Positions 30,466-58,122 of a DNA stretch of 64,000 nucleotides are shown piece after piece. A model generated the notes under the pieces. That model searched no databases. It was not told the DNA's origin and was given only the letters and a program-made list of their open reading frames with translations. A program made the position numbers and the translations under genes. This DNA comes from Escherichia phage ph0011: the sequence record OP557969.1. One strand, 5' to 3'. Numbering within the stretch: the first letter of the stretch is position 1; each line of letters starts with the position of its first letter.

Positions 30466-30708
30466 ATGAAAGTACTATCTGAATTACAAATGGGACAGAG
30501 ATTTAATAAGTACTATCATTTACTGAAACCTATACAGAGGATTAAATGTTCTTATGATGAGAAACAGGTTTTAATTTATGAGCACAAGTTCTTTGTATCA
30601 TTAGGTACGAATCATCAAGAGTACTATTTGAAGTTGTACTTGATTACATTAATAGATTTAATTCACTATAAAACCAAACAAGCTAATAAAGAGAAATATG
30701 AAAACTAA
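30466..30708 (+). CDS. FamB small protein
   Basis: LGTNHQEYYL; start at MKVLSELQ after upstream stop. Confidence 0.5.
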   Translation: MKVLSELQMGQRFNKYYHLLKPIQRIKCSYDEKQVLIYEHKFFVSLGTNHQEYYLKLYLITLIDLIHYKTKQANKEKYEN

Positions 30709-31042
30709 TATACAACTCAAGGTGTATAAATCCTATGAACATATATATATCAAAAGTAGTCTATGTAGAGATGTAATGGACTACAAGGGTAAGCCATTCA
30801 CAATTACGTATGATTCTTATATTAATGATTTATATATATCATTTGTTAATTACGAAAATAAAATATACAAGCACGTTGATATTAAAGATTTAAGTACTTT
30901 ATCTGAAGAGGAATACTTTCAAGAATCATTAGTATGGGATTTAGAATTTCCTATGCCATTAGTACATAAAATGATAGTACTAATGAAAGAAGCTAAACAG
31001 AAGCCTAATGGTGATTATGAAGAACACATCGTTGAGTATTAA
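30698..31042 (+). CDS. FamC protein (short form)
   Basis: Motif SEEEYFQESLVWD; embedded at end of FamB array. Confidence 0.55.
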   Translation: MKTNIQLKVYKSYEHIYIKSSLCRDVMDYKGKPFTITYDSYINDLYISFVNYENKIYKHVDIKDLSTLSEEEYFQESLVWDLEFPMPLVHKMIVLMKEAKQKPNGDYEEHIVEY

Positions 31043-31258
31043 ATGAAAAGATTATCATACAAAGATTACACCAATCTTATCAGGACTTTACAACCAGAAA
31101 TTAGAAGAATTAATTCTCTTCCTATATCTAATGAAGAATGTTCAGTACTGAAAGATGAGTTAATCTTAAAACACACAGTAGGAACAAACTATCAAGCTGA
31201 TAGTGTTCGATATTTAATTTGGGGGTTGATGTGTCAAATAAAGTCCAAGTGCTATTGA
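31043..31258 (+). CDS. FamB small protein
   Basis: VGTNYQADSV; starts immediately after FamC ORF stop. Confidence 0.55.
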   Translation: MKRLSYKDYTNLIRTLQPEIRRINSLPISNEECSVLKDELILKHTVGTNYQADSVRYLIWGLMCQIKSKCY

Positions 31259-31322
31259 CAGTACTTGACGGAGCTTTTCATTACTGATATAGTACACTAA
31301 CGTTAATCATAGGGTAGAAATT

Positions 31323-31568
31323 ATGTTAAAATTTTTAAATTTCCTTATCGTCTTGTGTATTGTTCTTGGGATTGCACCGTTTGTACTGGTGTATATGGAT
31401 TCAGATGAAATGCAAAAGATGAATTGCACAAGGACAGGACAGAGTAGAGAAGAGACGATTCTTATGCCTGTTACGGTTATTGTTAACAACATGCCCATTA
31501 CAAACATGGTCCCTACCCTAACGACAACGTACCAGTACTCTTGTACAGACGGGGAGAGGTGGAGATAA
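31323..31568 (+). CDS. small membrane protein (81 aa)
   Basis: N-terminal hydrophobic helix LNFLIVLCIVLGIAPFVLVYM; RBS TAGGGTAGAAATT. Confidence 0.5.
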   Translation: MLKFLNFLIVLCIVLGIAPFVLVYMDSDEMQKMNCTRTGQSREETILMPVTVIVNNMPITNMVPTLTTTYQYSCTDGERWR

Positions 31569-31891
31569 TGCGTAAGTTCAATTGTATTGTACGTAAGAAT
31601 TCATGTTATATTGTAGTAGCTGATTTTAATACAGGTTCTGGGTTGAAGATATTTGAGTACAGAAAATGTAATAATTCTTTTCATTGGAAATTAGGTGCAA
31701 GAAAAACAAAAACAATTTCAGTACCGAATTTATGTTCTATCTCTGAAGAAGAAGAGTTTCAGTACATGTTAGTACATGATGTTTCTTTAGGATTTACATT
31801 TGGAGATATGAAGGAAGTACAAAAGCAGATGATTGCACATTGTCATCTTCCAAAGAATTTTGTTCAACACGTATGTGAATTCCACATATAA
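31568..31891 (+). CDS. FamC-like protein
   Basis: SEEEEFQYMLVHD; start at MRKFN after RBS GAGGTGGAG. Confidence 0.5.
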   Translation: MRKFNCIVRKNSCYIVVADFNTGSGLKIFEYRKCNNSFHWKLGARKTKTISVPNLCSISEEEEFQYMLVHDVSLGFTFGDMKEVQKQMIAHCHLPKNFVQHVCEFHI

Positions 31892-31900
31892 GAGAATAAT

Positions 31901-32212
31901 ATGAAATTTAATATAGCAAAAACATCGAGTATATGTATTTTTGGTTATGCAGAAGAGTTAGGTGATATTGACATTCTTTTGTACAAAAAGGATGGTGTTA
32001 TGCATTTCAAGTACCAAGATGAAGAGGCAGACAATTATCCTTTACCTAATTTAGTACAAATACAGGAAGAGGAATTATTCCAGTACAGTTTAGTATACGA
32101 CATTGATATTTGCACGATGCCAGTATTAATTAATATACAAAAAGTGATGCTCGATATGTATGATAAGCTAATACAAGGTATGTCAGGGAGGATCATTGAA
32201 ATCGATATATAA
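31901..32212 (+). CDS. FamC protein
   Basis: QEEELFQYSLVYD. Confidence 0.55.
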   Translation: MKFNIAKTSSICIFGYAEELGDIDILLYKKDGVMHFKYQDEEADNYPLPNLVQIQEEELFQYSLVYDIDICTMPVLINIQKVMLDMYDKLIQGMSGRIIEIDI

Positions 32213-33329: not shown

Positions 33330-33890
33330 ATGAATGAGATAGAGTTATTATCACACAAGATTAGTACAATAGCTACAGTACTGAACAACAAAAATAAAGT
33401 ACATAGTTCCTTTTTAAGAATTAATAAAGTTGGTAGTAGTTTATATTTGGAAGTAAAAGCGGGTTTTGCAGGACAGTACAATGATAAAATCAAAGAAGAA
33501 GTTAAGGGAAATGAAGATGCTTTCATTGAGGTTTGTGCAACAGTTGGTTCAAATCCAATTTCAGTATCACCGTTAATGCGAAATGAAAATTCAGAATTTG
33601 ATTCCAGTTTCGAAGGTTATTTGTGGTACAATTATGGTGATAATTATTTTATATATCAGAATTCCAAAACGAATTATAGTGAAGAAGGTATAAAATTCAT
33701 TGATCCTTACAATGAAGCAGAAGTATTTCAGAAATCCCTAATATACAATACAAATCAAATGAAGTATCTTATGTTGTTTAGTACAATGCATTTGAATCCA
33801 TTGAAAGATAATTTAAAATTTTTCATTCGTTTAGAATTAGTTGATATTACTTATGATCTTTTAATCCAAGGAAGTAGTTATGAAGTATAA
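33330..33890 (+). CDS. FamC protein
   Basis: NEAEVFQKSLIYN. Confidence 0.55.
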   Translation: MNEIELLSHKISTIATVLNNKNKVHSSFLRINKVGSSLYLEVKAGFAGQYNDKIKEEVKGNEDAFIEVCATVGSNPISVSPLMRNENSEFDSSFEGYLWYNYGDNYFIYQNSKTNYSEEGIKFIDPYNEAEVFQKSLIYNTNQMKYLMLFSTMHLNPLKDNLKFFIRLELVDITYDLLIQGSSYEV

Positions 33891-34194
33891 AATGATGTAT
33901 ACACCATCATTAGTATATGTAGAATTAGAATCAAATGATAATGGGTGGAATTTCATTAAACATATCGATACCAATACATGGTACATGGCTCACTTGGATA
34001 ATAATGTGGTATCAGACCATTTTATGGATTTCAATATCTTAGATGAAGATGAATTTTTCCAAATGCAATTGGTGCTTGACACAAATGGTTTTGATATGGT
34101 ATTATTAAAGAATATACAGAAAGCTGTTGATGAATTAATAGCTGAACATAATTTGAGCGAAATAAGGATTAGTTATGACCTCGAAGTACTGTGA
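33880..34194 (+). CDS. FamC protein (short)
   Basis: DEDEFFQMQLVLD. Confidence 0.5.
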   Translation: MKYKMMYTPSLVYVELESNDNGWNFIKHIDTNTWYMAHLDNNVVSDHFMDFNILDEDEFFQMQLVLDTNGFDMVLLKNIQKAVDELIAEHNLSEIRISYDLEVL

Positions 34195-34525
34195 GTTTGA
34201 AATTAATAAGTTAAGAGAATGGTTTTATAATATTGAAATTGAGGCCATTCCTTATCATACATATGAACAAAGTGATTTACAATGTATTGATATTAGGGAG
34301 TTGTACAAATATTATCAAAGTGCGTTAGAGATGCATAAATTATTTTTGAGTACGGATTTCTTTATGCAGTATAATTTTGAGGAATATAATAATTATAACT
34401 TAGTACAGAAATACGTAGTAGCAAAGTACATGTACATTCAAGGTATTAAAGGTTGTATTGAATTCAATACTGTTCTTGCTTTAGTTGAGGTAATTTTATG
34501 TACAGCATGTGCATATCTAATTTAG
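34175..34525 (+). CDS. hypothetical protein (116 aa)
   Basis: ORF in array context; no FQ motif recognised. Confidence 0.45.
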   Translation: MTSKYCEFEINKLREWFYNIEIEAIPYHTYEQSDLQCIDIRELYKYYQSALEMHKLFLSTDFFMQYNFEEYNNYNLVQKYVVAKYMYIQGIKGCIEFNTVLALVEVILCTACAYLI

Positions 34526-35016
34526 AGTTTAGTTTAGATGCAGCCTTTAAATTTGCACATAAGATAGAAACAATATATAGTTTTTTTAGTGAAGTTTATG
34601 AAGTTTGTGCTAAACGATATATCGATACAATAGACATTAGCAATAAGTTCGATGTATGGCACAAAACAATCCAAAGCAAAAAGCAGTGTGCAGCAGTTTT
34701 TAGTGTTTTATCATTTAATCCCAGCAATTGTTACCCAGAGAAGCATGAACGTTATCCCAATGACGACATGTGGTTTGTGTACAAAGAAGATGCTGATATG
34801 TCGTCATTTGAAGTTCCTGATAATTTTGATATCAGTGATTTAACAGAAGAGTGGTGGTTCCAGCAGAATTTAGTACATGATGATATTGATTTATTTTTCT
34901 ATATCGTGTTCAAAATACTTTATCACAACAATATAGTTAAAGATAGTGTATCGTTTTCATGTCTATATATTGATGAGTTGTTCGAAGATATCAAAAATCT
35001 CAAGCCTGTATCGTAA
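34498..35016 (+). CDS. FamC protein
   Basis: TEEWWFQQNLVHDD. Confidence 0.55.
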   Translation: MYSMCISNLEFSLDAAFKFAHKIETIYSFFSEVYEVCAKRYIDTIDISNKFDVWHKTIQSKKQCAAVFSVLSFNPSNCYPEKHERYPNDDMWFVYKEDADMSSFEVPDNFDISDLTEEWWFQQNLVHDDIDLFFYIVFKILYHNNIVKDSVSFSCLYIDELFEDIKNLKPVS

Positions 35017-35070
35017 GATATGGGCTTTTTTGTTTGACTCAAGTACAAATGAATGGTACAATGTGAAATC
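35005..35070 (+). promoter_or_regulatory. internal terminator-like hairpin with U-run followed by sigma70-type promoter
   Basis: GGGCTTTTTTGTTTGACTC then TTGACT, 17-bp spacer, TACAAT. Confidence 0.45.
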
Positions 35071-35087: not shown

Positions 35088-35636
35088 ATGGAAAATTTTC
35101 AAATACCACAAGATTACGATACAGCGAAAGAGATGGTACACAAGGTTCATTACATTTTTAATGAATTAATTATTGCAAATTCATCCTGTATGCAAATTGA
35201 GTTAAAGGGTATTAATAGTGAAGAAGTTTTTTTGGCTTCTCCAAGTTCAATTATTCCGTTGTATGGTATGGACCGTTTATGGTTCATGAGAGATGCACCA
35301 ATTGACAGGTACAAAATACAAAAAAAATCAGAGAATGATTTTCTTTATGATTATTTTAATATTTCATTACAAGCACACGATATAAGTACAATGAGTGCAG
35401 AGGAATATTTTCAGCACAGTACAGTGTATAGTCCAGAAGAAATCTTTGTTGTTATGCTTGTTGCAAAATTGAGTACTGTTGATTTTGGGACGTACCCAAA
35501 TAAATCATTCAAGATTATTATTCCTGCATTTGTTGATCTTTATGATTTCATTGTGCACAAGAAAGAAAGTACAGTGTACGATATGCAGCGTTCAAATATC
35601 AGTTTAATTGCAGTAAGTGCAGGGGAATTAAAATGA
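35088..35636 (+). CDS. FamC protein
   Basis: SAEEYFQHSTVYSPEE; RBS AAGGAG. Confidence 0.6.
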   Translation: MENFQIPQDYDTAKEMVHKVHYIFNELIIANSSCMQIELKGINSEEVFLASPSSIIPLYGMDRLWFMRDAPIDRYKIQKKSENDFLYDYFNISLQAHDISTMSAEEYFQHSTVYSPEEIFVVMLVAKLSTVDFGTYPNKSFKIIIPAFVDLYDFIVHKKESTVYDMQRSNISLIAVSAGELK

Positions 35637-36241
35637 ACATAGACCAATTAATGAAGTACAGTAAAAGTACAGTTCCAGTACTAAGTAAAGTGTTAGATGC
35701 CTTCACTGCTAAGTACCCTGAAGGTTCAGAGTTAAATATTCCTTTTACTACACCAGGGATTGATGATACTTACATGGTACACATTGGTAGTTCAGGTATT
35801 GTTTTGAAGCAAAAGTACAGTGATAGTGAATATTATGGTTTGAAACTGGATAAAATTTCAGGAGAGAAGACACCTTTTGAGTTTTGGATTCCGAATAGTA
35901 TTGAATCATGGAATACACATATTAATAAGAGAGACGAAGGTAATATTTCTCTTGTAAATTATAAGGAAAAAAGATTTGACGTATTTTATTATTACAGTAC
36001 AGATACGTTTCCAGAAGAGATTTATTTAAATTCAGAGATGTATGAAGATATTGAATCATTTTTCTTTCAGTTATCATTGGTACATGATATCATGCCATTG
36101 CAAGCGTTCAGGGATGAAATAAATTTAGCGAAAGAGATTTCGGATATGTTACCTGAATTTAGTGTTCTTTATGGTAGTAGAGCTTTACCTGAAAATGTGT
36201 ATATAGAATTTATTTCTTGTGTTCAAGGATTGAATATATAA
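35633..36241 (+). CDS. FamC protein
   Basis: DIESFFFQLSLVHD; ATGA overlap. Confidence 0.55.
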   Translation: MNIDQLMKYSKSTVPVLSKVLDAFTAKYPEGSELNIPFTTPGIDDTYMVHIGSSGIVLKQKYSDSEYYGLKLDKISGEKTPFEFWIPNSIESWNTHINKRDEGNISLVNYKEKRFDVFYYYSTDTFPEEIYLNSEMYEDIESFFFQLSLVHDIMPLQAFRDEINLAKEISDMLPEFSVLYGSRALPENVYIEFISCVQGLNI

Positions 36242-36242
36242 T

Positions 36243-36437
36243 ATGAACGAAGATGATATCAAAAAAAGGCATACGAAGTTTGAACTGCTCCCTGACGAAA
36301 TCCACATTGATATAGTTAATTTTAACATCAAAGCGTCCTTGCATCCTATATCACAAGATGATTTTGACAACAGAGTGCTTAACATAGTGGTGATTTTGTG
36401 CTATAATCATTTCAGTGAATATTTTAACAAAAGATGA
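36243..36437 (+). CDS. small hypothetical protein (64 aa)
   Basis: ORF immediately after upstream stop. Confidence 0.4.
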   Translation: MNEDDIKKRHTKFELLPDEIHIDIVNFNIKASLHPISQDDFDNRVLNIVVILCYNHFSEYFNKR

Positions 36438-36444
36438 GGTACAT

Positions 36445-36966
36445 ATGTATCAGCACACGTACAATACATCATATGAGTATGGGTACAGCATTTTGAAGAT
36501 TATCAAAGCGTTAGAGGGTGGATTGCTTAGTCATAAGTACACCAGAGTAGGTGACAATTGGTTCAGAAATGATGATGATGAGTTCAGAAGTCATAAAATC
36601 GTTTACAGTAATAATTACAGTGCTAATTATCTTCAGGATGTGGTTATGTGCTTTGAATACGTGTTACAGTTCAGGGGTTCCATCAGACCAGAGTTAAGAG
36701 AACACATGTACATTCGATACCTACCAATGCTTGAGGATGAGAAATCAATATTCAATTCAGTACACCACAGAGTACGAGATAGAACATTCAGGAATATTTT
36801 GGAAGATGAAGCTGCCTATTTTCAGCGATCATTGATTGATGCTCCTGATGTGTTACAGATGCAGAATTTGTATAATGTATTAGATGCGAACATCGATACT
36901 GATATCTTTTTTTCCTTAAGTGATTATGAAACATGTTTGGAAGATTTAAAGGAAATAGGATTATGA
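36445..36966 (+). CDS. FamC protein
   Basis: DEAAYFQRSLIDAPD; start at MYQHTYN after RBS GAGGT. Confidence 0.5.
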   Translation: MYQHTYNTSYEYGYSILKIIKALEGGLLSHKYTRVGDNWFRNDDDEFRSHKIVYSNNYSANYLQDVVMCFEYVLQFRGSIRPELREHMYIRYLPMLEDEKSIFNSVHHRVRDRTFRNILEDEAAYFQRSLIDAPDVLQMQNLYNVLDANIDTDIFFSLSDYETCLEDLKEIGL

Positions 36967-37316: not shown

Positions 37317-37859
37317 ATGAGTTTATTAGATACCATAGAAAAAGACAGAAGTGCCATTAAGAGATTAAAAAATCTGGTTCTGTGTATTGTGAACAACGTT
37401 GAAAAGTTTGAAGTCCAAGGAAGAATTGGTGATATTTCACATACAGGAATAAAATCCCTGAAGTCAGATTTATTAATTCATAAGGAAGATAAATTATTAT
37501 TTGTATTGAGTTCAGATTTATTGGTTGCAAGTAATGGTTTCAATTCGGTATCAACACAAGATGGTAGTACTGGATTATATCTATCACAGGGTGTACAGAC
37601 GAATGAACATAAGTGTTTTAGTTCAAGAGTACAGAATCCCTTTAAGTTTAATACAGAACAAGCTACAGAGCTTTTTGAGGCTTCAGAAGAGATGTTATTT
37701 CAGTACAAAATGGTCTATACAGATTTTGAAATACGATGCCTATACGCTGTTAAGCATTATGTACAAGAGTTCGAAGATTTAAATTATCTTTTAGTTCGAA
37801 CGAATACGAAGAACATTGACATATTAGAAGATTACATTTCAACAGTTGTTAGTGTGTAA
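37317..37859 (+). CDS. FamC protein
   Basis: SEEMLFQYKMVYTD; RBS TAAGGAAGGA. Confidence 0.6.
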   Translation: MSLLDTIEKDRSAIKRLKNLVLCIVNNVEKFEVQGRIGDISHTGIKSLKSDLLIHKEDKLLFVLSSDLLVASNGFNSVSTQDGSTGLYLSQGVQTNEHKCFSSRVQNPFKFNTEQATELFEASEEMLFQYKMVYTDFEIRCLYAVKHYVQEFEDLNYLLVRTNTKNIDILEDYISTVVSV

Positions 37860-39663: not shown

Positions 39664-39664
39664 T

Positions 39665-40188: not shown

Positions 40189-40189
40189 T

Positions 40190-46475: not shown

Positions 46476-46477
46476 CC

Positions 46478-50313: not shown

Positions 50314-50340
50314 AGACCCGTATGGGTCTTTTTGTGTTTT
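50314..50340 (+). terminator. rho-independent terminator
   Basis: AGACCC-gtat-GGGTCT then TTTTTGTGTTTT. Confidence 0.7.
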
Positions 50341-50345
50341 AGGCT

Positions 50346-50380
50346 TTACATAAGCATTCAGGTGTGTTATACTTGATTTT
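50346..50380 (+). promoter_or_regulatory. sigma70-type promoter
   Basis: TTTACA, 17-bp spacer, TATACT. Confidence 0.45.
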
Positions 50381-50400: not shown

Positions 50401-50964
50401 ATGAGTACTGAATTAATTAAAGAAGTCACATTACTTCTGAAACATTGTTTTAAGTACATTCCTGATACTGGTTCACGCCAGTACATTAAAGTTAATGAGA
50501 AATATAACATTAATGTCTTAAAGAATGAAACCGTTAACAGTTATGCAAACATTGAGTTAGATGTTGAGGACAAATACACAGCATTACACATCATTTCGTC
50601 AGGCGATAGAAAACAAGATTATCGTTCTACATTTTATGATGAGAGTGTTACTGTTGGTTATAACTTTCATAAAAATAAAATTGCGTACAAGAATACATAC
50701 ACACATGAAGTAATTGAAGAGTACAATTATAAAATTAAAAAAGACGAGTACGATGTACTTTTATTCAATGCGAACCTCATACATAATGCTTGCACAGTTC
50801 GCAATCTTATGTTAGCATATGAAATTCCAAAGGTGATAGAAAGAAATGAATTGATAATCTTCAAAACTATTTTAAAATTCAGTACAGAAGAATTAGAAGA
50901 ACTAGTACTGGCTCTTAAGATGTTCATCAATGAATATGTGCCTGTTAAATTAGAGGACTTATAA
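50401..50964 (+). CDS. hypothetical protein (187 aa), possibly divergent FamC
   Basis: Start at MSTELIK after RBS GGAGG (track ORF begins at a TTG). Confidence 0.55.
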   Translation: MSTELIKEVTLLLKHCFKYIPDTGSRQYIKVNEKYNINVLKNETVNSYANIELDVEDKYTALHIISSGDRKQDYRSTFYDESVTVGYNFHKNKIAYKNTYTHEVIEEYNYKIKKDEYDVLLFNANLIHNACTVRNLMLAYEIPKVIERNELIIFKTILKFSTEELEELVLALKMFINEYVPVKLEDL

Positions 50965-51548
50965 TGCAAGCTGAACACATTCAAATTATGAATTTGATGC
51001 ATGACATTGCGGAACTATCTGATAAGTACGATATTACTGTTCATGAGTCTATTGGAAATTATCGACTTAAAGTTGAAAACAAATCACCACATCGTTTTGG
51101 TTCTGTGACACTGGAGTCTTATAAAGATTACGGTTATGGAACGGCAAAAAAGGGTTTCTGGGATACTATGGCAATGTATATACGTACATCAAGACGTAGA
51201 GAACAAATCGGTTCAATTACGCCAAATATGATATTTGTCAATGCTGTACACAGTGATATTAATCGAATTGTTGAATCTAATTTTGGTGACGTTGAGAACG
51301 ATACATATTTGGAAATTCCACCAGAACTAGACCAATGTGAAGACATTCGTGAAGCATACATTTTCCAGAGATCATTACTTAACAACTTCAATGAGTTTCA
51401 GTACTTGATGCTTTGTTATGAAGCTGCAAAAGCTATTAAGACTGGTGAATTGGTAATGTATAATAATTTCATTAACTGCAAATCCGATACACTTAAAGAG
51501 TTACACACTGCCATCAAAAACATCAAGGATACATATGAACGCTTATAG
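50964..51548 (+). CDS. FamC protein
   Basis: REAYIFQRSLLNNFNEFQYLMLCYE. Confidence 0.55.
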   Translation: MQAEHIQIMNLMHDIAELSDKYDITVHESIGNYRLKVENKSPHRFGSVTLESYKDYGYGTAKKGFWDTMAMYIRTSRRREQIGSITPNMIFVNAVHSDINRIVESNFGDVENDTYLEIPPELDQCEDIREAYIFQRSLLNNFNEFQYLMLCYEAAKAIKTGELVMYNNFINCKSDTLKELHTAIKNIKDTYERL

Positions 51549-52113
51549 TTATATGACAGAACGTCATCAGATATTATATGATATCAGTACTAAAATGTTA
51601 TCAATCGTTAATAGTGGAAAAGAAATTGAAAAACAATACCTCATCCGTGATGTAGCAATTTCATCTAAATGTTGGTCCAATGAATATTACAACCACGGTA
51701 TTCTTACGATTTCTGGTGCTAGAAATATTTGTATTGTAAAAAATAAAAACAAAAGTAATGAAGAGTGTGAGATTAGAACCGATATACAAATTAAGGATGA
51801 TGGAAGTTTTTCACACTACCCATTTCATATTAGTACTATTGGTGTTTTATATAATATTAAAGTACTATTCGGTGATGAAGAGTATAAGTTAAAATATATC
51901 GACCCAGAATCGAGTACAGTCCAAGAAGACCTGTTTCAGATGAGCACAATTATGCCCGAAGAAGTTCTTAGTACTGTTGTTTTTTGTAGTTTAATTTATC
52001 ACGAATACAAAAAGAACCAATTCGATTTCCACATGATAGGAACGTACATCTTCAATAATTTGAATGTAGATCGTTTAAAAGCATTAAATTCAGCAATGGA
52101 TAAGGTGCTATAA
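51535..52113 (+). CDS. FamC protein
   Basis: VQEDLFQMSTIMPEE. Confidence 0.5.
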   Translation: MNAYSYMTERHQILYDISTKMLSIVNSGKEIEKQYLIRDVAISSKCWSNEYYNHGILTISGARNICIVKNKNKSNEECEIRTDIQIKDDGSFSHYPFHISTIGVLYNIKVLFGDEEYKLKYIDPESSTVQEDLFQMSTIMPEEVLSTVVFCSLIYHEYKKNQFDFHMIGTYIFNNLNVDRLKALNSAMDKVL

Positions 52114-52541: not shown

Positions 52542-53047
52542 ATTTATTAAATGCACGCGAATTGGTTGAGATGTATGAGATATTGTCTACATATAAAAAT
52601 TCACCTGACGATGTAATTATCAACAAAAAGTTCCATGTCAGTGTTGATCATATGACAAATATAGATATGATTTCTTTGGTTGAAAGTAATAAGTCAGGTC
52701 TTGAACGTGATATCATGCGTTTGATTTATATTCCCAAACCATCATATCCTAATGATAGTTCAATTAGTAATGAGACTTTTATATATAATCCTTATACTGA
52801 TTGTACTTTAGTTTCGGTATCGAATCAGAAACAAGATACTTTTCAATTCATCTATACCAGTACTGATAACCTTGAAGAAATCGAATTCCAAAATAATACA
52901 TTAAGTCCATGTGGAAGTATTATTGCATTCATGTCATATCTGTGGTCAATCAAATCAGATACCATAGTATATAGTTCAAATTATACACAGGATTGTATTG
53001 TTGAATCATTTAAAGTTCTAAAGGAATACTATGAAAATAACAAATGA
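52538..53047 (+). CDS. FamC-like protein
   Basis: LEEIEFQNNTLSP; ATGA overlap. Confidence 0.5.
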   Translation: MNLLNARELVEMYEILSTYKNSPDDVIINKKFHVSVDHMTNIDMISLVESNKSGLERDIMRLIYIPKPSYPNDSSISNETFIYNPYTDCTLVSVSNQKQDTFQFIYTSTDNLEEIEFQNNTLSPCGSIIAFMSYLWSIKSDTIVYSSNYTQDCIVESFKVLKEYYENNK

Positions 53048-53612
53048 TTTTATTAAAAGTTTAGTACACCCTATGCTTAGTGTTATGAAAAAATCACAGT
53101 CTCTACCTGAAGATAACGATTACAAGTATAATCGTTTTGATTCAGATGTGTTTTGTATTGAAATGGAAATTAATAACAATCGTGATTTTTATTTAAAATT
53201 CAAAGAATCTTCAAGTTCGTACTACAATTTTGACATGAATTTCAAAATGGACACAAATATTGAAGAAAACGCAATTTCAAATCATATTAGTAGAAATGGT
53301 TTTATGTATAGATCTAATATGCATAATAATAAAAAAAGTGTTAGATCTAAATGGAACCAGCAATTCACTAAAATTTGTGAAATTGATAGCAGTACTTTTG
53401 GTGAAGAACAATATTTTCAATTAAGCACAATTCATGAACTACCACCATATGATTTTGTTAAAACATGGTTTGATATTCATAATATAATTGATGAAACAAT
53501 TGAACTTCCATTTAGTTTATCAATATCATATACTGCAACTAAAACGTTTATTTTTACTGAAGATATGATTATGAAAAAAATATGGGCAATGCTCCCTCTT
53601 ATGAGTGATTAA
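53031..53612 (+). CDS. FamC protein
   Basis: GEEQYFQLSTIHEL. Confidence 0.5.
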   Translation: MKITNDFIKSLVHPMLSVMKKSQSLPEDNDYKYNRFDSDVFCIEMEINNNRDFYLKFKESSSSYYNFDMNFKMDTNIEENAISNHISRNGFMYRSNMHNNKKSVRSKWNQQFTKICEIDSSTFGEEQYFQLSTIHELPPYDFVKTWFDIHNIIDETIELPFSLSISYTATKTFIFTEDMIMKKIWAMLPLMSD

Positions 53613-53624: not shown

Positions 53625-54176
53625 ATGAATCAAAGTCATGATCTTTTTAAATTATGTGCATCCAAAGATGTTGAAGGATGGACAGATAAAGTCAATACAA
53701 TCATCAATAGATTCCGAGTCTTTAGTGCTCGTGCACGAAGTGATGGTTCTATGAATTTCAAATATTCAATGACAATTGATGGTGTTGTAATTCATGTAGA
53801 TGAAGAAAAACTATCTATTAATCTACATGATTCATGTGTATTTGCTATTCATCAAAAGATGGGTTCAGGATGGGGTTGCAACAACATGAACTCAAAAGCA
53901 TTCTTTTGGGTTGGTCATTACAATACAGTTCTTGATCCTTCCATCAAATCCAATCTATTAGTTAATAATATCGTTTATGATTTATCGTATCCAGAAGAGT
54001 CACATTTTCAATTGAGTACATTACATAATTTAGTCAAATATGAAGATTGTGTCAAAGCATTAGAATTATGTCATTCAATTGATCTTAAAGATAAGTTGAT
54101 ACAAATTTACCCGTTGTTCTTCCATGAAGAAGTACAATGCACACTTGAACATATTTTATATGGGTACGATAAATGA
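53625..54176 (+). CDS. FamC protein
   Basis: PEESHFQLSTLHNL; RBS ACGGAGAAA. Confidence 0.55.
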   Translation: MNQSHDLFKLCASKDVEGWTDKVNTIINRFRVFSARARSDGSMNFKYSMTIDGVVIHVDEEKLSINLHDSCVFAIHQKMGSGWGCNNMNSKAFFWVGHYNTVLDPSIKSNLLVNNIVYDLSYPEESHFQLSTLHNLVKYEDCVKALELCHSIDLKDKLIQIYPLFFHEEVQCTLEHILYGYDK

Positions 54177-54775
54177 GAAAAAGTTACCAAGAAGCTATTG
54201 ACCTAATTCGAGAAGTTATTAAGGTTGCACCAGGTGCAATAGCATTCAAGAAGTCTCTATATAAGAAATATGGTCCCATGTCAAGTATGTGCTGTCAAAA
54301 GAAACGTAGTAAATTCACTACGCAGTACTGGCATGACTCTATTATCTTGAGTAATGAACATCAGCGTATTTTAACAATCGAATCAGTAGATAATCAATAT
54401 GGGGAAGGATTGATTTGTATTCCTGACTATGATGAAATTAATTTCAATTGTGGGGATTATGAGACAACATTATTATTACACGAGGGTTATCCTGAAGGTG
54501 ATGTAATGGCAGAGTATAATCCAAAAACAAAAATACTGAAACGTGGTATACAGTTCAAAATCGATAACAAAGATGATGTGGAAGCTGCACTAATGCAACT
54601 GAGTACAAGCGAACCTATCTCTATTGATGTAGAAGAGTTATGGGGAATCATTTCAGTACTTAATGAGTGTTATAAAATTAAATCATTGCATAAGTACTCT
54701 ATAATTTTACATACTAATTGTGCAATGATAAAATGTAAGAACATACAAGAGATGGTGGTTCCAGATGAACTTTAA
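54173..54775 (+). CDS. FamC-like protein (divergent)
   Basis: EAALMQLSTSEP; ATGA overlap. Confidence 0.45.
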   Translation: MRKSYQEAIDLIREVIKVAPGAIAFKKSLYKKYGPMSSMCCQKKRSKFTTQYWHDSIILSNEHQRILTIESVDNQYGEGLICIPDYDEINFNCGDYETTLLLHEGYPEGDVMAEYNPKTKILKRGIQFKIDNKDDVEAALMQLSTSEPISIDVEELWGIISVLNECYKIKSLHKYSIILHTNCAMIKCKNIQEMVVPDEL

Positions 54776-55349
54776 AGAAATAGAAAGTAAAATTAAGTAC
54801 TTCAAAGATATCAAAAAACTTTGGGAAAAGTATAAAATTGTTTATCAATTCCAAGATGATGATACTGTTCAAACCATTGATATTAGTATTCGTGTGAAGT
54901 TCAAGAATGGTAGTTATGGTGAAGTTAAATTGAATTCTATGGGTGTATATCTTAGAGACTATGATGGTTCCACTCTTGCACAATTTGACTTCACACCTGA
55001 CCCTGATGATATGTTACTGAGTGAAATCAATGCGTATGACCTTGAGATGTTTGGTGGGAAACCTTTATTATTCCGCTTATCAGATGAATGGGATGAGGTT
55101 TACTACACATACAAAGATGGAGTGATTCGAGACGTGAATGATGAGGTTGTAAATGATATGGAAGAACGTCTATTCCAAGAATCATGTGTGTCATCTGAGT
55201 CATATACATACCAATACCTACTTGACATGTTCGATTTGTATAGTAAAATAGATTCAGAAATGGGTACATTGGGTATTCATTATCTCACAATAAATGACTA
55301 TGCTCAACTCGAAACCGCAGTGAAAGCATTATCTAAAGTTCTGAAATAG
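54765..55349 (+). CDS. FamC protein
   Basis: MEERLFQESCVSSES. Confidence 0.5.
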   Translation: MNFKEIESKIKYFKDIKKLWEKYKIVYQFQDDDTVQTIDISIRVKFKNGSYGEVKLNSMGVYLRDYDGSTLAQFDFTPDPDDMLLSEINAYDLEMFGGKPLLFRLSDEWDEVYYTYKDGVIRDVNDEVVNDMEERLFQESCVSSESYTYQYLLDMFDLYSKIDSEMGTLGIHYLTINDYAQLETAVKALSKVLK

Positions 55350-55358: not shown

Positions 55359-55772
55359 ATGAAACTGTATCATGCGAGTACTGTAAAAATTGATAACTTT
55401 TATATCCCGTATGGTGGCCTTCATATGGGAGGTAAACACAGTGCACTTGAAGCTGCATTACGCAAGCTAAGAAGCCCACTGAACGTTGTTGCCGCTGATA
55501 CAGTATACTTGCATACTTTAGAAGTTGATGTTGACAACGTGCTTCTATGGGAGGATTTGGGTAGTGATGATGAGTGGCGTTCACTAATTGAACATTGTAA
55601 TTCTAAAGGTTACGATGCTGTTCAATACACAAATGAATACGAGCCGGATAATGTTCCTAGTTATATGATTTGGGATACGTCTAAGGTTCGCATTGTCGAA
55701 GTTGATGCTATGCATATGGATGATGCAGAAATGATCATCGAAGATTTCCTTGATGAATATGAAGGTGTATAA
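55359..55772 (+). CDS. hypothetical protein (137 aa), not FamB/FamC
   Basis: RBS TAGGAATGAATT; distinct composition (LYHAS, GLHMGGKH); no confident family. Confidence 0.55.
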   Translation: MKLYHASTVKIDNFYIPYGGLHMGGKHSALEAALRKLRSPLNVVAADTVYLHTLEVDVDNVLLWEDLGSDDEWRSLIEHCNSKGYDAVQYTNEYEPDNVPSYMIWDTSKVRIVEVDAMHMDDAEMIIEDFLDEYEGV

Positions 55773-56290
55773 TGATTGAACCTATGACAGTACTAGCACG
55801 TACTAAATTATTATTGAAGATTGGTGAGATATTAACTGATATTTTGTACAGTGAGATTGATATACATGAATTATGCATTATACAACCATGGGAATTAACC
55901 AAATTCTCTGCGTTCTATCGTTTATCATATAAAGGGGAAACAGTTCTGGACTGGAACCCCAAAGCCAGATTTATGGAGTATGCAGCTTTATATGGAACAT
56001 GTGGTGGAATAACAAATGATTTTAAAGAAATTAAAACTCAAACAGCGTCACATGAATTTAATGATTTATTATATCCAGAATTTAAGTTAACAGAAGAATC
56101 ATTATTCCAGCACTCATTAATTTTAAAAGATCTTAATGATTTAGAGTACTACAAAGAATTAGTAGATATTTTTATGAATACACGACTTTCAAAAGATATT
56201 GTGATATTCTGGTATACAGAGCATGTTACGGAGGAATTGCTTACTGAATTTCTTCTAAATATGACAGCTATAAAGGAGAAGTTATGTTAG
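55772..56290 (+). CDS. FamC protein
   Basis: TEESLFQHSLILKD. Confidence 0.55.
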   Translation: MIEPMTVLARTKLLLKIGEILTDILYSEIDIHELCIIQPWELTKFSAFYRLSYKGETVLDWNPKARFMEYAALYGTCGGITNDFKEIKTQTASHEFNDLLYPEFKLTEESLFQHSLILKDLNDLEYYKELVDIFMNTRLSKDIVIFWYTEHVTEELLTEFLLNMTAIKEKLC

Positions 56291-56757
56291 ATATTTTAGG
56301 AAACATCGATACTGCAAATTATTTTATCCAAGACGCACTGTTTAATACACTACAAAAAGGTTTAGAAGTTCGTCACAATGTATACCAAGGTGATGGTTAT
56401 TTCGTTGATATTATTGAGGCACGAAAGAATACGTTTAATCTTAACGTTACGACGCTTGGAAGACAGAACATTGCACGAATTTTAGTAAGTAAAGATGAAA
56501 TTGTATTAAGATACAGTGCTAAGTTTATGCTGACTTACAAGAAAAAAACTGACATGTTCAGTACTAATTTATTTGATGAGCCATTTGACCTTGAAGATAT
56601 TGAAGCTACTTTCTTCACTCAAAGTACTATGGTAAAATACACTGATGTTCAATTTTCAGCAGACGTTATGTCTGAAACATTACAAATGATCAAGGTATTA
56701 TTTTATGCTTTTGAGCAATTTAGAGAAGAAAGAAATAAGGTTAACAACCACAGATGA
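56284..56757 (+). CDS. FamC-like protein
   Basis: IEATFFTQSTMVKY. Confidence 0.45.
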   Translation: MLDILGNIDTANYFIQDALFNTLQKGLEVRHNVYQGDGYFVDIIEARKNTFNLNVTTLGRQNIARILVSKDEIVLRYSAKFMLTYKKKTDMFSTNLFDEPFDLEDIEATFFTQSTMVKYTDVQFSADVMSETLQMIKVLFYAFEQFREERNKVNNHR

Positions 56758-57118
56758 ACTAATAGAGGCGATTACTAAGGATTCAAAATACCATAAAGGG
56801 ATTCGTCTATACTTTATAGATACTGGCTCAATGGAAGGTACATACATTTATGGCTCACAATCTTTGTCTTATGTTGTAATACCAAATAAAAATGTAAAAA
56901 TCTTTTTAGGTTCAAGTAAAAAAGCGTTCTTGACAGTTAATGACAACAGTGTTATTATGAATTCCTTGGGTCATGACAAGGTAGAAATTGATCTAAACAC
57001 ATTAGAAGAAATGGATTTTTTTCAGTACGAGTGTTTAGGCGTTGACTTACATGGTATCAGTAGTGATATGATAAAATCATTAATTAAATATTTCAAGGGT
57101 GTTTATAAATGTATCTAA
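56705..57118 (+). CDS. FamC-like protein
   Basis: LEEMDFFQYECLG; start uncertain (53-nt overlap with upstream ORF). Confidence 0.4.
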   Translation: MLLSNLEKKEIRLTTTDELIEAITKDSKYHKGIRLYFIDTGSMEGTYIYGSQSLSYVVIPNKNVKIFLGSSKKAFLTVNDNSVIMNSLGHDKVEIDLNTLEEMDFFQYECLGVDLHGISSDMIKSLIKYFKGVYKCI

Positions 57119-57606
57119 CAAAATCGATGAAAAATTCATTTGATAAGATCAAGAGTGTTCTTGGTGGTGAGCATATTACTAGTGTGACTCAAACGGCTGA
57201 CCAAATTCAATGCAGTTCAAATGATTATACTGTAATTCTAGGTTTACATAGTCTACGTTTGACAATAGTAAATAATATTGACAACACTGCAATTGTAATA
57301 ACACCATGCCATATCAAAAATGAAAATGGTGTATATCTTCATCATATGGGAACAGTATTTCATATTTTTAATACAAATGAAAATATTGTTAAAGAATACA
57401 ATACACTTAATATTGATTCAGGTGAATTATTTCAAATGAGCACGTTGTACTCATGTAATTTTACAGATACTTCACGTATTTTACCATTCTTCTTAGAAAT
57501 TATTAAGAAAATGGAAAATTTAAAACGTGAATACAATAAAGAAATGGTTCCTGAAGCTATATTAAATATTACTAATGCTATAGAGAAGTATAATTCAGTG
57601 ACTTAA
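57109..57606 (+). CDS. FamC protein
   Basis: DSGELFQMSTLYSC. Confidence 0.5.
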   Translation: MYLTKSMKNSFDKIKSVLGGEHITSVTQTADQIQCSSNDYTVILGLHSLRLTIVNNIDNTAIVITPCHIKNENGVYLHHMGTVFHIFNTNENIVKEYNTLNIDSGELFQMSTLYSCNFTDTSRILPFFLEIIKKMENLKREYNKEMVPEAILNITNAIEKYNSVT

Positions 57607-57648
57607 TAAAAACGCACATGGAGTGCATGAGAAGATCAAGGATAGATC

Positions 57649-58122
57649 ATGGAGATTAAAACCGTTGAAAATGGGGAAATTGATGACATTTTAGAGTTGG
57701 ATGCCTTCAAAGTTCATGATATAATGTTCAATGTGAAAGACATTATTCAATGTCTGTTTTTGTGCAGCAAGACTATGCATGACTTTTTTCACAACCCAAA
57801 TACAAATGTTTTTATACTAACAATCAGTACTGAAAGCTCGTTCATCATGGGTATGCCTATGAGTACGAATGAACAGTATATTGATTGTGTTATTCGCAAT
57901 AACGATAGTATTACACCTCAATCTGAAGTACGTAAAAAGAAAAACACTTACACAATCAAAGATGATAAAATTATGATGTGCTGTAGTAAGGGGTTTATAT
58001 TAGATAATTTTATTGTCAAAGATAGTTATCATGACTTTAAAGTTTCCGAAAACCAATCTAATGTAGTTCTTTATGCAAGTGACATAGAAAGTCTAACAGT
58101 AAAAGATCCCAGTTTGGAGTAA
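57649..58122 (+). CDS. hypothetical protein (157 aa)
   Basis: RBS AAGGATAGATC; no clear FQ motif. Confidence 0.5.
   Translation: MEIKTVENGEIDDILELDAFKVHDIMFNVKDIIQCLFLCSKTMHDFFHNPNTNVFILTISTESSFIMGMPMSTNEQYIDCVIRNNDSITPQSEVRKKKNTYTIKDDKIMMCCSKGFILDNFIVKDSYHDFKVSENQSNVVLYASDIESLTVKDPSLE

What the first reader, a model, noticed from the sequence alone, without database searches (positions are those of the whole stretch)
30698..58122. Hyper-expanded tandem array of about 45 FQ-x-S paralogs (FamC)
Over about 27 kb nearly every gene is a 100-200 aa paralog sharing a C-terminal-third motif: acidic-acidic-x-[YFL]-F-Q-x-S-[LT]-[IVL], usually followed by D/E and a hydrophobic helix (for example EEYYFQQSLIF..LVVLWYFK, EAELFQAALVFDKKYLCTLEE, ESVMFQLSLIHE). 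The genes are tightly packed with ATGA start/stop overlaps and only a few internal terminator/promoter pairs (about 35020, 46480, 50320), so they are probably co-transcribed. Members are mostly divergent, so the array is old, but local subgroups (40190-42010 WYFK type; 38568-40006 and 45247 DKKY type) show ongoing duplication. I could not assign the family to any domain I know. A single family filling this much of a phage genome suggests strong diversifying selection, as for anti-defence, host-takeover or decoy proteins.
Basis: seen in the sequence. Interest (0 to 1): 0.85.

Follow-up and report, generated by a model that had tools for sequence, protein, structure and literature searches.

The report
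Forty-paralog early gene array, jumbo coliphage
A giant E. coli virus gives about 27 kb next to its genome end to some forty old, separately conserved copies of one small protein whose predicted shape matches no solved structure and whose job is unknown; they are most likely made early to take over or disarm the host.

Summary
The window is the left end of an Asteriusvirus (PBECO4/121Q-like, Rak2-like) jumbo coliphage.

- **Family size:** between 30698 and 57606, 39 same-strand genes (103-202 aa) form one family. Its signature is [ST]-E-E-x-[LY]-F-Q-x-S-[LT]-[VI]-[YHF]-D. F-Q is invariant in 150 aligned relatives. One more gene (53625-54176) is probable, so the count is about 40, not 45. These 39 are 74% of the ORFs of 100 aa or more.
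- **Chance:** the motif occurs in 33 of 66 ORFs against 0.1 in shuffles. It occurs in none of 100 ORFs outside and essentially never on the other strand.
- **Position:** the array starts just after the ~21-kb terminal-repeat equivalent. It is read from five sigma70-like promoters in its few gaps, and its orthologues are absent from the virion proteome.
- **Evolution:** the array recurs, collinear, in other Rak2-like genera.
- **Not supported:** "ongoing duplication" (closest paralogues are about 48% identical, each with its own orthologue) and "strong diversifying selection" (omega about 0.26, none above 1).

Best reading: an old set of specialised early host-interaction proteins. Function is untested.

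The parts
30698..31042 (+). FQxS family member (114 aa), first of the array
   Evidence: Leave-one-out HMM E=4e-13; motif SEEEYFQESLVW
31541..31891 (+). FQxS member (116 aa), variant motif EEEFQYMLV
   Evidence: Not a seed. Pulled in by the HMM; leave-one-out E=1.8e-6
31901..32212 (+). FQxS member (103 aa, short type)
   Evidence: Leave-one-out E=1.9e-10
33330..33890 (+). FQxS member (186 aa)
   Evidence: Leave-one-out E=2.8e-10; phrog_19795
33880..34194 (+). FQxS member (104 aa), motif FFQMQLV
   Evidence: Not a seed; leave-one-out E=4.5e-8
34498..35016 (+). FQxS member (172 aa), motif WFQQNLV
   Evidence: Not a seed; leave-one-out E=2.1e-10
35088..35636 (+). FQxS member (182 aa)
   Evidence: Leave-one-out E=2e-13
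35633..36241 (+). FQxS member (202 aa)
   Evidence: Leave-one-out E=3.6e-8
36415..36966 (+). FQxS member (183 aa)
   Evidence: Leave-one-out E=1.2e-5
37317..37859 (+). FQxS member (180 aa), motif LFQYKMV
   Evidence: Not a seed; leave-one-out E=3.5e-6
38520..38945 (+). FQxS member, 'DKKY' subgroup (longest ORF 141 aa; the true start is probably downstream)
   Evidence: Leave-one-out E=1.3e-12
38942..39301 (+). FQxS member, 'DKKY' subgroup (119 aa)
   Evidence: Leave-one-out E=9.1e-17
39298..39663 (+). FQxS member, 'DKKY' subgroup (121 aa)
   Evidence: Leave-one-out E=1.6e-16
39593..40006 (+). FQxS member, 'DKKY' subgroup (longest ORF 137 aa)
   Evidence: Leave-one-out E=5.8e-19; phrog_15629
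40190..40660 (+). FQxS member, 'WYFK' subgroup (156 aa)
   Evidence: Not a seed; leave-one-out E=1.5e-13
40657..41097 (+). FQxS member, 'WYFK' subgroup (146 aa)
   Evidence: Leave-one-out E=2e-17
41100..41567 (+). FQxS member, 'WYFK' subgroup (155 aa); the protein modelled with high confidence
   Evidence: Leave-one-out E=3e-21; AlphaFold2 pLDDT 90.4, pTM 0.86
41567..42010 (+). FQxS member, 'WYFK' subgroup (147 aa)
   Evidence: Not a seed; leave-one-out E=3.3e-19
42007..42321 (+). FQxS member (104 aa, short type)
   Evidence: Leave-one-out E=2.1e-7
42321..42764 (+). FQxS member (147 aa)
   Evidence: Leave-one-out E=6.2e-9
42761..43216 (+). FQxS member (151 aa)
   Evidence: Leave-one-out E=4.2e-12
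43203..43739 (+). Probable FQxS member (178 aa), degenerate motif FDEQCFQLSCTD
   Evidence: Carries F-Q in the right register, but it is the only member with no leave-one-out match
44052..44648 (+). FQxS member (198 aa)
   Evidence: Leave-one-out E=7.1e-9
45247..45606 (+). FQxS member (119 aa, 'DKKY'-like)
   Evidence: Leave-one-out E=1.2e-12
45596..45931 (+). FQxS member (111 aa)
   Evidence: Leave-one-out E=2.3e-11
45939..46475 (+). FQxS member (178 aa), motif YFQQTLI
   Evidence: Not a seed; leave-one-out E=8.7e-14
46535..47008 (+). FQxS member (157 aa)
   Evidence: Leave-one-out E=2.9e-11
47005..47475 (+).
   Evidence: Leave-one-out E=5.5e-18; AlphaFold2 pLDDT 70
47465..47827 (+). FQxS member (120 aa)
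   Evidence: Leave-one-out E=9.7e-11
47811..48224 (+). FQxS member (137 aa)
   Evidence: Leave-one-out E=4.9e-6
48212..48691 (+). FQxS member (159 aa)
   Evidence: Leave-one-out E=8e-13
49230..49802 (+). FQxS member (190 aa)
   Evidence: Leave-one-out E=2.6e-7
49795..50313 (+). FQxS member (172 aa)
   Evidence: Leave-one-out E=1.5e-10
50964..51548 (+). FQxS member (194 aa), weak
   Evidence: Leave-one-out E=9.3e-4
51535..52113 (+). FQxS member (192 aa), weak
   Evidence: Leave-one-out E=1.5e-3; motif QEDLFQMSTI
53031..53612 (+). FQxS member (193 aa)
   Evidence: Leave-one-out E=3.3e-6
53625..54176 (+). Probable additional member (183 aa), motif PEESHFQLSTLH
   Evidence: Family HMM E=1.1e-3; profile-profile probability 86%, E=5.5e-6
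54765..55349 (+). FQxS member (194 aa)
   Evidence: Leave-one-out E=5.5e-7
55772..56290 (+). FQxS member (172 aa)
   Evidence: Leave-one-out E=3.8e-6
57109..57606 (+). FQxS member (165 aa), last of the array
   Evidence: Leave-one-out E=6.8e-5
24729..24756 (+). Sigma70-like promoter (TTGACT-16-TAAAAT) at the head of the arrays, just after the terminal-repeat equivalent
   Evidence: The repeat boundary maps to about 24690 by alignment to fEgEco12
31265..31293 (+). Sigma70-like promoter in an intergenic gap (TTGACG-17-TATAGT, TG)
35002..35062 (+). Intrinsic terminator (35002-35027) followed by a sigma70-like promoter (35034-35062)
46472..46501 (+). Sigma70-like promoter in a gap (TTGACC-18-TATAAT, TG)
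50312..50373 (+). Terminator that scores on both strands (50312-50331) followed by a sigma70-like promoter (50345-50373)
58234..58254 (+). Terminator closing the last transcription unit of the array

Best explanation
The array is an old, stable set of about 40 paralogous genes for small, acidic, soluble, non-virion proteins. All share one compact alpha/beta domain whose model matches nothing in the PDB.

Shown here:
- The paralogy, the fold prediction and the absence of any PDB neighbour for it.
- The position immediately downstream of the ~21-kb terminal-repeat equivalent.
- The few long transcription units.
- 1:1 orthology under purifying selection.
- Conservation of the arrangement in several Rak2-like phage genera.

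Inferred:
- The units are read by host sigma70 RNA polymerase early in infection, after the promoter-dense terminal-repeat genes.
- Each paralogue acts in the cytoplasm on a different host factor (takeover or counter-defence), so none is redundant and all are kept.
- The conserved segment [ST]EE-x-[LY]-FQ-x-S-[LT]-[VI]-[YH]-D is a short helix, a five-residue linker and the start of a long helix. Together with the C-terminal F-[YF]-x-D strand it is mainly the structural keystone of the fold.
- The N-terminal helix and the beta region vary in length (59-144 residues before the F) and probably carry target specificity.
For: Family and motif:
- The family is real.
- F-Q is invariant in 150 sequences whose mean column identity is 8%.

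Structure:
- The model has pLDDT 90.4 and pTM 0.86: helix 3-22, seven strands 28-97, helices 99-103, 109-115 (holds F113 and Q114) and 121-135, strand 141-144, helix 146-152.

Protein properties:
- Median pI is 4.9, and no 19-residue window exceeds the hydrophobicity cut-off used as a simple transmembrane check.

Position and signals:
- Window base 3358 aligns to base 1 of the linear fEgEco12 genome. That phage's 20,993-bp terminal repeat (PMC13070987) maps to about 24690 in the window.
- Muenster and fENko-Kae01 carry annotated repeats of 20,030 and 19,736 bp, and their arrays start right after them.
- The repeat equivalent has 12 perfect sigma70 promoters (101 promoter-like sites against 69.5 +/- 8 expected).
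- The array has no overall promoter excess, but 5 promoters matching at least 10 of 12 positions sit in its few gaps, against 0.41 expected (P about 7e-5).
- In the related PA5oct, terminal-repeat genes are early and the phage relies on host RNA polymerase (PMC7318152).

Not virion proteins:
- None of gp404c-gp463c is among the 62 virion proteins of phAPEC6.

Kept individually:
- Omega has a median of 0.26-0.28 and is never above 1.
- Gene order is fully collinear within the genus (38 of 38 steps against Turkey3; 36 of 36 and 34 of 34 against PBECO4 and phAPEC6).
- The motif helix (omega 0.11) and the C-terminal strand (0.15) are the most constrained parts. Insert columns (0.37) are the least.

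Neighbours typical of takeover regions:
- A gene homologous to an annotated ADP-ribosyltransferase lies inside the array.
- A kinase-like gene and a GNAT gene lie in the repeat equivalent.
Against: - No expression data exist for this phage group, so promoters and terminators are only consensus matches.
- No member has a known partner, phenotype or homologue of known function.
- Purifying selection and strict synteny are not the classic signature of arms-race genes, and omega never exceeds 1.
- Acidic pI and small size are unspecific.
- The proteomic absence is negative evidence from one study of one relative.
- In fENko-Kae01 one gene at the end of the array (ENKO_077) is flagged as detected by LC-MS/MS. 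That data set also lists ligase and kinases.
- An invariant polar Q, with conserved E-E and S, could be a functional site rather than a structural one. I could not inspect the model coordinates.
Confidence: 0.45

Rival explanations
1. Common-handle adaptor family. The invariant E-E...F-Q-x-S segment is a shared docking or catalytic surface that every paralogue uses on one common partner, such as a host protease, RNA polymerase or a phage machine. The variable N-terminal part recruits different targets, in the manner of F-box or PRANC families.
For: - F-Q is invariant in 150 sequences that are otherwise only 8% identical per column.
- The motif helix has the lowest omega (0.11) of any element.
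- The N-terminal part varies from 59 to 144 residues while the C-terminal module stays at 40-75.
Against: - The conserved positions also look like ordinary helix caps ([ST]-E-E at the helix start, D before the next helix) and core hydrophobics (L/Y, F, L/T, V/I, Y), as expected of a folding keystone.
- No partner is known, and surface exposure could not be checked.
Confidence: 0.15
2. Phage-internal role. The paralogues serve the phage's own replication, transcription timing or assembly, for example as chaperones or regulators, rather than acting on the host.
For: - Strict retention, collinearity and purifying selection resemble core-like genes.
- The array is present in every Rak2-like lineage examined.
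Against: - Copy number differs between lineages (about 21 to 46), and 3-5 genes differ between close relatives. Only 11 of 39 have recognisable orthologues in Klebsiella phage Muenster.
- Amino-acid divergence is greater than in flanking genes (76% against 92% identity to PBECO4).
- The location is among takeover-type genes, not replication or structural modules.
Confidence: 0.2
3. Virion-packaged or ejected internal proteins delivered with the DNA.
For: - phAPEC6 has an inner body and many unassigned virion proteins.
- ENKO_077 is flagged as found by LC-MS/MS.
Against: - None of the about 60 array genes (gp404c-gp463c) is among the 62 proteins detected in phAPEC6 virions.
- The genes lie in the early-type region, on sigma70-like promoters.
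Confidence: 0.03
4. Artefact or ballast. The motif is a by-product of AT-rich composition, or the ORFs are decaying duplicates without function.
For: - GC content is only 28-34% across the array.
- Fourteen larger ORFs in the interval cannot be tied to the family.
Against: - The motif is found in 33 ORFs against 0.10 in shuffles and is essentially absent from the other strand.
- Leave-one-out profiles recover 37 of 39.
- Omega is about 0.26, with intact orthologues in every genome compared.
- The AlphaFold model is confident.
Confidence: 0.02

Closest known systems
PHROGs 9317, 12674, 13866, 15629 and at least 22 further PHROGs (all 'unknown function')
   Same: These are the same proteins. Every member hits one or more of these groups, some with cross-hits between groups.
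   Different: The library splits the family into at least 26 groups and gives no function or unifying signature. Here they are joined by profile searches, an invariant F-Q and one predicted fold.
Lineage-specific expansions in other jumbo phages, e.g. the ~35-copy zinc-ribbon family of Bacillus phage G (Iyer et al. [quoted passage not shown]
   Same: Dozens of paralogues of one small domain in a jumbo phage. In the arrays cited by PMC13282480 the copies are clustered, and that review reads them as genome growth by duplication.
   Different: The fold is different and there is no homology. The copies here are highly divergent rather than 'highly similar', are individually orthologous across genera, and sit at a fixed place next to the terminal repeat.
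Terminal host-takeover gene clusters of virulent phages (SPO1 gp37-60 in the terminal redundancy; T5 pre-early genes; terminal-repeat genes of Twort-like phages). Recalled from my own knowledge, not tested here.
   Same: Many small genes of unknown function at the genome end, same orientation, host-type early promoters. In the related PA5oct the terminal-repeat genes are early.
   Different: Those clusters lie inside the repeat, have about one strong promoter per gene and are not one paralogous family. That description fits window 3358-24690, not the FQxS array, which lies outside the repeat and has 5 promoters for 66 ORFs.
Multigene families near the genome ends of large eukaryotic DNA viruses (ASFV MGF360/505, poxvirus terminal families). 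Analogy from my own knowledge.
   Same: Tandem arrays of very divergent paralogues close to a genome terminus, with modest copy-number differences between isolates.
   Different: There is no sequence or fold relation and the host domain differs. Their role in host range and immune evasion is demonstrated, whereas here it is only inferred.

Membership tests
FQxS family as defined here | Significant match to a family profile built without the sequence itself | tested here: met
   37 of 39 at E<1e-3; one at 1.5e-3; 43203-43739 fails. The best E-value among 780 shuffles was 0.0096.
FQxS family as defined here | Invariant F-Q within [ST]EE-x-[LY]-F-Q-x-S-[LT]-[VI]-[YHF]-D, 40-75 residues from the C-terminus | tested here: met
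   F and Q are invariant in A1 (39 sequences) and A2 (150 sequences).
FQxS family as defined here | Same-strand tandem array next to the long terminal repeat in Rak2-like phages | tested here: met
   - Window and the first three relatives: window 39, Turkey3 46, PBECO4 40, fEgEco12 at least 39.
- phAPEC6: 41.
- Turkey5: 36; Muenster: 28 by HMM, about 32 motif-bearing ORFs.
- fENko-Kae01: about 21.
- Metagenome contigs: 11 of 16 and 24 of 25 ORFs.
Any curated protein family (Pfam-A, NCBIfam, PADLOC) | Match above the curated or a meaningful threshold | tested here: not met
   All 39 were scanned. There were only single chance hits at E>0.002. A profile search against PDB sequences gave a best E-value of 0.16.
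Virion or internal proteins | Detection in purified virions | tested here: not met
   phAPEC6 orthologues gp404c-gp463c are absent from the table of 62 virion proteins (PMC7247149). This evidence comes from the literature on a relative, not from this phage.
Arms-race (diversifying) gene family | dN/dS above 1 between orthologues | tested here: not met
   Gene-wide median is 0.26 against PBECO4 and 0.28 against Turkey3, with maxima of 0.97 and 0.63. By structural element the range is 0.11-0.37, and the highest 10-residue window is 0.57. Site models were not run.
Arms-race (diversifying) gene family | Recent duplicates or rapid copy turnover | tested here: not met
   The closest paralogues are about 48% identical over 81 residues. 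Only 3-5 family genes differ between genomes of the genus, and order is fully collinear.
Terminal-repeat host-takeover module (SPO1 or T5 type) | Located inside the terminal redundancy with about one strong host promoter per gene | tested here: not met
   The array begins about 60 bp outside the repeat equivalent and has 5 gap promoters for 66 ORFs. The description fits 3358-24690 instead.
Terminal-repeat host-takeover module (SPO1 or T5 type) | Early transcription and host shut-off activity | not testable with these tools
   No transcriptome or functional data for Asteriusvirus turned up in the literature searches.
ADP-ribosyltransferase (for the embedded gene 55359-55772 only) | ART fold and catalytic motif | tested here: inconclusive
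   The gene is 57% identical to Muenster gp123, which its record annotates by HHpred (4GV2, 99.8%). Pfam and PDB sequence searches here find nothing. It falls in phrog_11632, unknown function.

The most novel reading that the evidence does not exclude
The FQxS proteins are a phage-specific effector superfamily built like an adaptor set. An invariant helix-linker-helix 'handle' (E-E..F-Q.S) docks every paralogue to one common machine, and about 40 different N-terminal faces each capture a different host protein or defence system. That would make the array a pre-loaded, host-range-widening counter-defence arsenal, comparable to the multigene families of giant eukaryotic viruses.
Probability: 0.15. 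Interest if true: 0.85.

Novelty: new member of a known kind. Interest (0 to 1): 0.55.

Why it matters
- **Scale:** Rak2-like jumbo phages spend about 7% of a ~350-kb genome on this family. That is about 18 kb of coding sequence in 39 genes. With the neighbouring short family, it is about 70 genes.
- **Unrecognised:** the family is invisible in the libraries searched. Pfam, NCBIfam and PADLOC have no entry, PHROGs has at least 26 unconnected groups, and every GenBank record examined calls the genes 'hypothetical'. The only mention found is the RaK2 paper's remark that nearly 10% of that phage's gene products are paralogues of each other.
- **What this work adds:** a single signature and profile that join the groups, a confident model without PDB neighbours, and a fixed genomic address. 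That address is directly after the terminal repeat, behind host-type promoters.
- **Why test it:** these features make the array an obvious, tractable place to look for new host-takeover or anti-defence activities.
- **What the evolution says:** long-term retention of each copy under purifying selection argues for forty distinct jobs rather than redundancy.
- **Practical use:** these phages are being developed for therapy, so knowing what a tenth of their genes do matters.

Tried and rejected
- **Link to the upstream short ORFs.** An all-against-all phmmer put the 60-95-aa ORFs (24757-30708) in one cluster with the FQxS genes. The link was a single E=8e-4 hit. Profile-profile comparison gives 0.5% probability, so they are two families.
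- **Rescuing the 14 unassigned larger ORFs.** I compared their orthologue alignments with the family profile. Only 53625-54176 passes (86%). 52113-52541 reaches 33%, but a control outside the array reaches 23.5%. They stay unassigned, although several carry motif-like remnants at the right relative position.
- **Distant representatives.** P0067 and P0125 have no match in GenBank phages. They come from metagenome contigs that are themselves arrays.
- **P0056.** This 773-aa protein with 13 matching stretches is a translated 53-residue tandem repeat, a false positive.
- **Potyviral NIa (TEV) site.** The resemblance to E-x-x-Y-x-Q-[GS] holds in only 1 of 39 members and 5 of 131 representatives. 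The segment is helical in the model. Rejected.
- **Literature.** Searches for a transcriptome or a description of this family found nothing specific.
- **AFDB fold search.** The library was not available.
- **RNA genes.** tRNA and Rfam scans of the window were empty.

Full report
**What the window is.** A megablast of 40000-48000 finds 33 phage records at 80-90% identity, all E. coli or Salmonella jumbo phages of the PBECO4/121Q group (genus Asteriusvirus, 'Rak2-like'). The best is TH47 at 89.9%. Window base 3358 aligns to base 1 of the linear genome of fEgEco12. That phage's ends and its 20,993-bp direct terminal repeat were determined experimentally (PMC13070987). By this alignment the repeat equivalent is window 3358 to about 24690. 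The window is therefore the left 60 kb of the genome, preceded by 3.3 kb that belong before the right-hand repeat in a circularly written record.

- A loose form of the motif occurs 29 times in the three + frames, all inside 30698-58122, and once in the - frames. The strict form occurs 13 times against 0.
- Among 66 non-nested + strand ORFs in the interval, 33 carry [DE]x1-3FQx[SA][LTC]. The mean in 1000 residue shuffles is 0.10, and 0 of 100 ORFs outside carry it.
- An HMM seeded with 32 motif-bearing ORFs recruited 7 further ORFs at E<1e-13, and all 7 have F-Q in register.
- Leave-one-out profiles recover 37 of 39 at E<1e-3. One scores 1.5e-3 and 43203-43739 fails. The best E-value among 780 shuffled sequences is 0.0096.
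- Of 92 junctions between neighbouring ORFs from 24.7 to 58.2 kb, 75 overlap and 27 are ATGA-type.

**Corrections to the observation.**
- There are 39 firm members and one probable one (53625-54176; profile-profile probability 86%), so about 40 rather than 45.
- They are 39 of the 53 ORFs of 100 aa or more.
- The rest are five genes of a different short family, eight further small ORFs (58-81 aa) and 14 larger ORFs that I could not tie to the family. A control from outside the array scored as well as most of those 14.
- The last member ends at 57606.

**The protein.**
- Members are 103-202 aa with a median pI of 4.9. None has a 19-residue window above the hydrophobicity cut-off I used as a simple transmembrane check.
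- The signature is [ST]-E-E-x-[LY]-F-Q-x-S-[LT]-[VI]-[YHF]-D. It lies 40-75 residues from the C-terminus and 59-144 from the N-terminus.
- In an alignment of the 39 members with 111 database relatives, F and Q are the only invariant columns. Mean column identity is 8%.
- With that alignment, AlphaFold2 gives a confident single-domain model of the 41100-41567 protein (pLDDT 90.4, pTM 0.86). It has an N-terminal helix (3-22), seven strands (28-97), helices 99-103, 109-115 (S-E-E-Y-Y-F-Q-Q) and 121-135, a strand at 141-144 in the region of the second conserved patch (F-[YF]-x-D), and a last helix.
- Foldseek against predicted viral structures returns only uncharacterised proteins. The named ones are from Rak2-like phages: 121Q, RaK2, SP27 and Serratia BF, and more weakly GAP32 and Yersinia fHe-Yen9-03.
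- Pfam, NCBIfam, PADLOC and a profile search of PDB sequences are all empty.
- PHROGs holds the members in at least 26 separate groups of unknown function.
- A profile search of 1.84 billion representative proteins finds only 131 clusters. All are small proteins except one false positive, a translated tandem repeat.

**Evolution.**
- The array is old and stable, not actively duplicating. Only 53 of 741 paralogue pairs are detectable by BLASTP. The closest pairs, within the 40190-42010 and 38520-40006 subgroups, are 47-48% identical over about 80 residues.
- Every member has a reciprocal-best orthologue in Turkey3 (39 of 39, 38 of 38 collinear steps). The figures are 37 of 39 in PBECO4 and 35 of 39 in phAPEC6. 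They fall to 25 of 39 in the more distant Turkey5 lineage and 11 of 39 in Klebsiella phage Muenster.
- Three to five family genes differ between genomes of the genus. The least alignable stretch against fEgEco12 is at window ~33.7-34.2 kb.
- Pairwise dN/dS has a median of 0.26 (PBECO4) and 0.28 (Turkey3) and is never above 1. The proteins do diverge faster than flanking genes (76% against 92% identity).
- Pooling all paralogues by structural element, the motif helix (0.11), the C-terminal strand (0.15) and the long helix (0.22) are the most constrained. Lineage-specific insert columns (0.37) and residues 91-100 (0.57) are the least. Nothing approaches 1.
- HMM counts in the equivalent region are Turkey3 46, phAPEC6 41, PBECO4 40, Turkey5 36, Muenster 28 (about 32 ORFs there carry the motif) and fENko-Kae01 about 21.
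- Two metagenome contigs carrying distant members are themselves arrays: 11 of 16 ORFs and 24 of 25 ORFs.

**Context and expression signals.**
- The repeat equivalent (3358-24690) carries small genes separated by gaps. It has 12 perfect TTGACA-16/17-TATAAT promoters and many near-perfect ones (101 sites against 69.5 +/- 8 expected).
- The 33 kb of arrays that follow have no overall excess of promoter-like sites. But five + strand sites matching at least 10 of 12 positions fall in the 460 nt of intergenic gaps, where 0.41 are expected (P about 7e-5).
- With terminators at 35002, 50312 and 58234, this gives three terminator-bounded units with two extra internal promoters.
- In Muenster and fENko-Kae01 the annotated terminal repeats (1-20,030 and 1-19,736) end just before the array.
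- In the related PA5oct, terminal-repeat genes are early and the phage depends on host RNA polymerase (PMC7318152). In CBB, the region carrying the RpoD-like promoters (CBB_390-546, possibly extending into the terminal repeat) was proposed as early (PMC5259590).
- None of the phAPEC6 orthologues (gp404c-gp463c) is among that phage's 62 virion proteins (PMC7247149).
- Genes typical of takeover regions lie alongside. A homologue (57% identity) of a Muenster gene annotated as ADP-ribosyltransferase is at 55359-55772. A kinase-like gene and a GNAT gene are in the repeat equivalent, and Dam methylase and a nucleotidyltransferase lie just downstream.

**What it most likely is.**
- Shown: one divergent family with a fold that has no PDB neighbour, about 40 copies, fixed next to the terminal repeat, a few long operons behind host-type promoter matches, not in virions, each copy kept under purifying selection, conserved across several genera.
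- Inferred: early transcription by host RNA polymerase. Inferred: cytoplasmic action of each paralogue on a different host factor (takeover or counter-defence). Inferred: the conserved C-terminal module is the keystone of the fold, and the variable N-terminal helix and sheet carry specificity. I put this at 0.45.
- The pattern of the motif fits a structural role: [ST]-E-E at the start of the short helix, D just before the long helix, and hydrophobic residues in between. An invariant Q with conserved E-E and S leaves room for a shared binding or catalytic site (the adaptor model, 0.15).
- A phage-internal role is the main conservative rival (0.2). Virion proteins (0.03) and artefact or ballast (0.02) are essentially excluded.

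**Comparison with what is known.**
- Paralogue arrays in jumbo phages are known in general. Phage G has a zinc-ribbon expansion of about 35 copies, called unprecedented in PMC7824862. [quoted passage not shown] - This particular family has not been described, named or unified in any source I could search. Its copies are highly divergent rather than similar.
- It is not a member of any curated family.
- It resembles terminal host-takeover modules and the multigene families of large eukaryotic viruses in layout only.
- I class it as a new member of a known kind.

**Limits.**
- No transcriptome or functional data exist for these phages, and promoters and terminators are consensus matches.
- Selection was measured pairwise and pooled, not with site models.
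- Gene starts are longest-ORF calls. Some, for example 38520, 39593 and 44052, are probably too long.
- The claim that the fold has no known neighbour rests on a predicted model and on the PDB and BFVD only.

Noticed in passing
window 24757-30708, plus 31043-31258, 32196-32408, 32360-32644, 43717-43935, 43913-44104: A second hyper-expanded family. There are 27 tandem ORFs of 63-95 aa with an 'LGTNYQE'-type motif (phrog_4148, unknown function, median pI 8.2), plus five copies scattered inside the FQxS array. It is unrelated to FQxS by profile-profile comparison. It is present in Asteriusvirus, Turkey5 and Muenster but not detected in fENko-Kae01.
   Followed up: partly
window 1126-3082: A third tandem family: ten ORFs of 60-77 aa (phrog_11711, unknown function). 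It lies in the stretch that precedes the physical genome end.
   Followed up: partly
window 3358-24690: Equivalent of the ~21-kb direct terminal repeat. Base 3358 aligns to base 1 of linear fEgEco12. No + strand ORF of 50 aa or more was called between 3083 and 4629, and GC skew changes sign near 4 kb. The region holds 12 perfect sigma70 consensus promoters, with roughly one promoter-like site per small gene. A recurrent TTGCAA-16-TATAAT variant occurs at least 9 times.
   Followed up: partly
window 13461-13498, 17190-17227, 20459-20496: A repeated composite cassette: a 12-bp-stem hairpin (AAAGGGATTGACTCCGGTCAGTCCCTTT) followed by GCTATTATAT. The TTGACT inside the hairpin arm and the TATTAT 17 nt later also score as a promoter. 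It looks like a fused terminator and promoter unit, seen three times.
   Followed up: no
window 55359-55772: A 137-aa gene embedded in the array. It is 57% identical to Klebsiella phage Muenster gp123, which its GenBank record annotates as a putative ADP-ribosyltransferase (HHpred 4GV2, 99.8%). It is far better conserved between genera than its FQxS neighbours (omega 0.11). Pfam and PDB sequence searches here found nothing.
   Followed up: partly
window 15501-15857, 19806-20447, 62403-62927, 62924-63457: Recognisable enzymes flank the arrays. A GNAT acetyltransferase (Pfam E=4e-9) and a weak protein-kinase-like ORF, annotated as a kinase in relatives, lie in the repeat equivalent. A Dam-type N6-adenine methyltransferase (E=7e-33) and a weak match to a cytidylyltransferase-like nucleotidyltransferase (Pfam E=0.011, below the cut-off; annotated as such in relatives) lie downstream.
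   Followed up: partly
L008 (Logan SRR26954460 contig, 53 kb) and L007 (ERR2298563): Metagenome contigs with no match in GenBank phages carry even denser FQxS arrays: 24 of 25 consecutive ORFs of about 200 aa in L008. The family therefore extends to uncultured phages, always as arrays.
   Followed up: partly
L009 (fENko-Kae01) 28378-32398: In this Klebsiella aerogenes phage, four additional family hits form a second small cluster about 8 kb downstream of the main array, beyond the methyltransferase and nucleotidyltransferase genes.
   Followed up: no
window 50312-50331 and 58234-58254: Both hairpins score as terminators on both strands, although almost all genes here are on the + strand.
   Followed up: no
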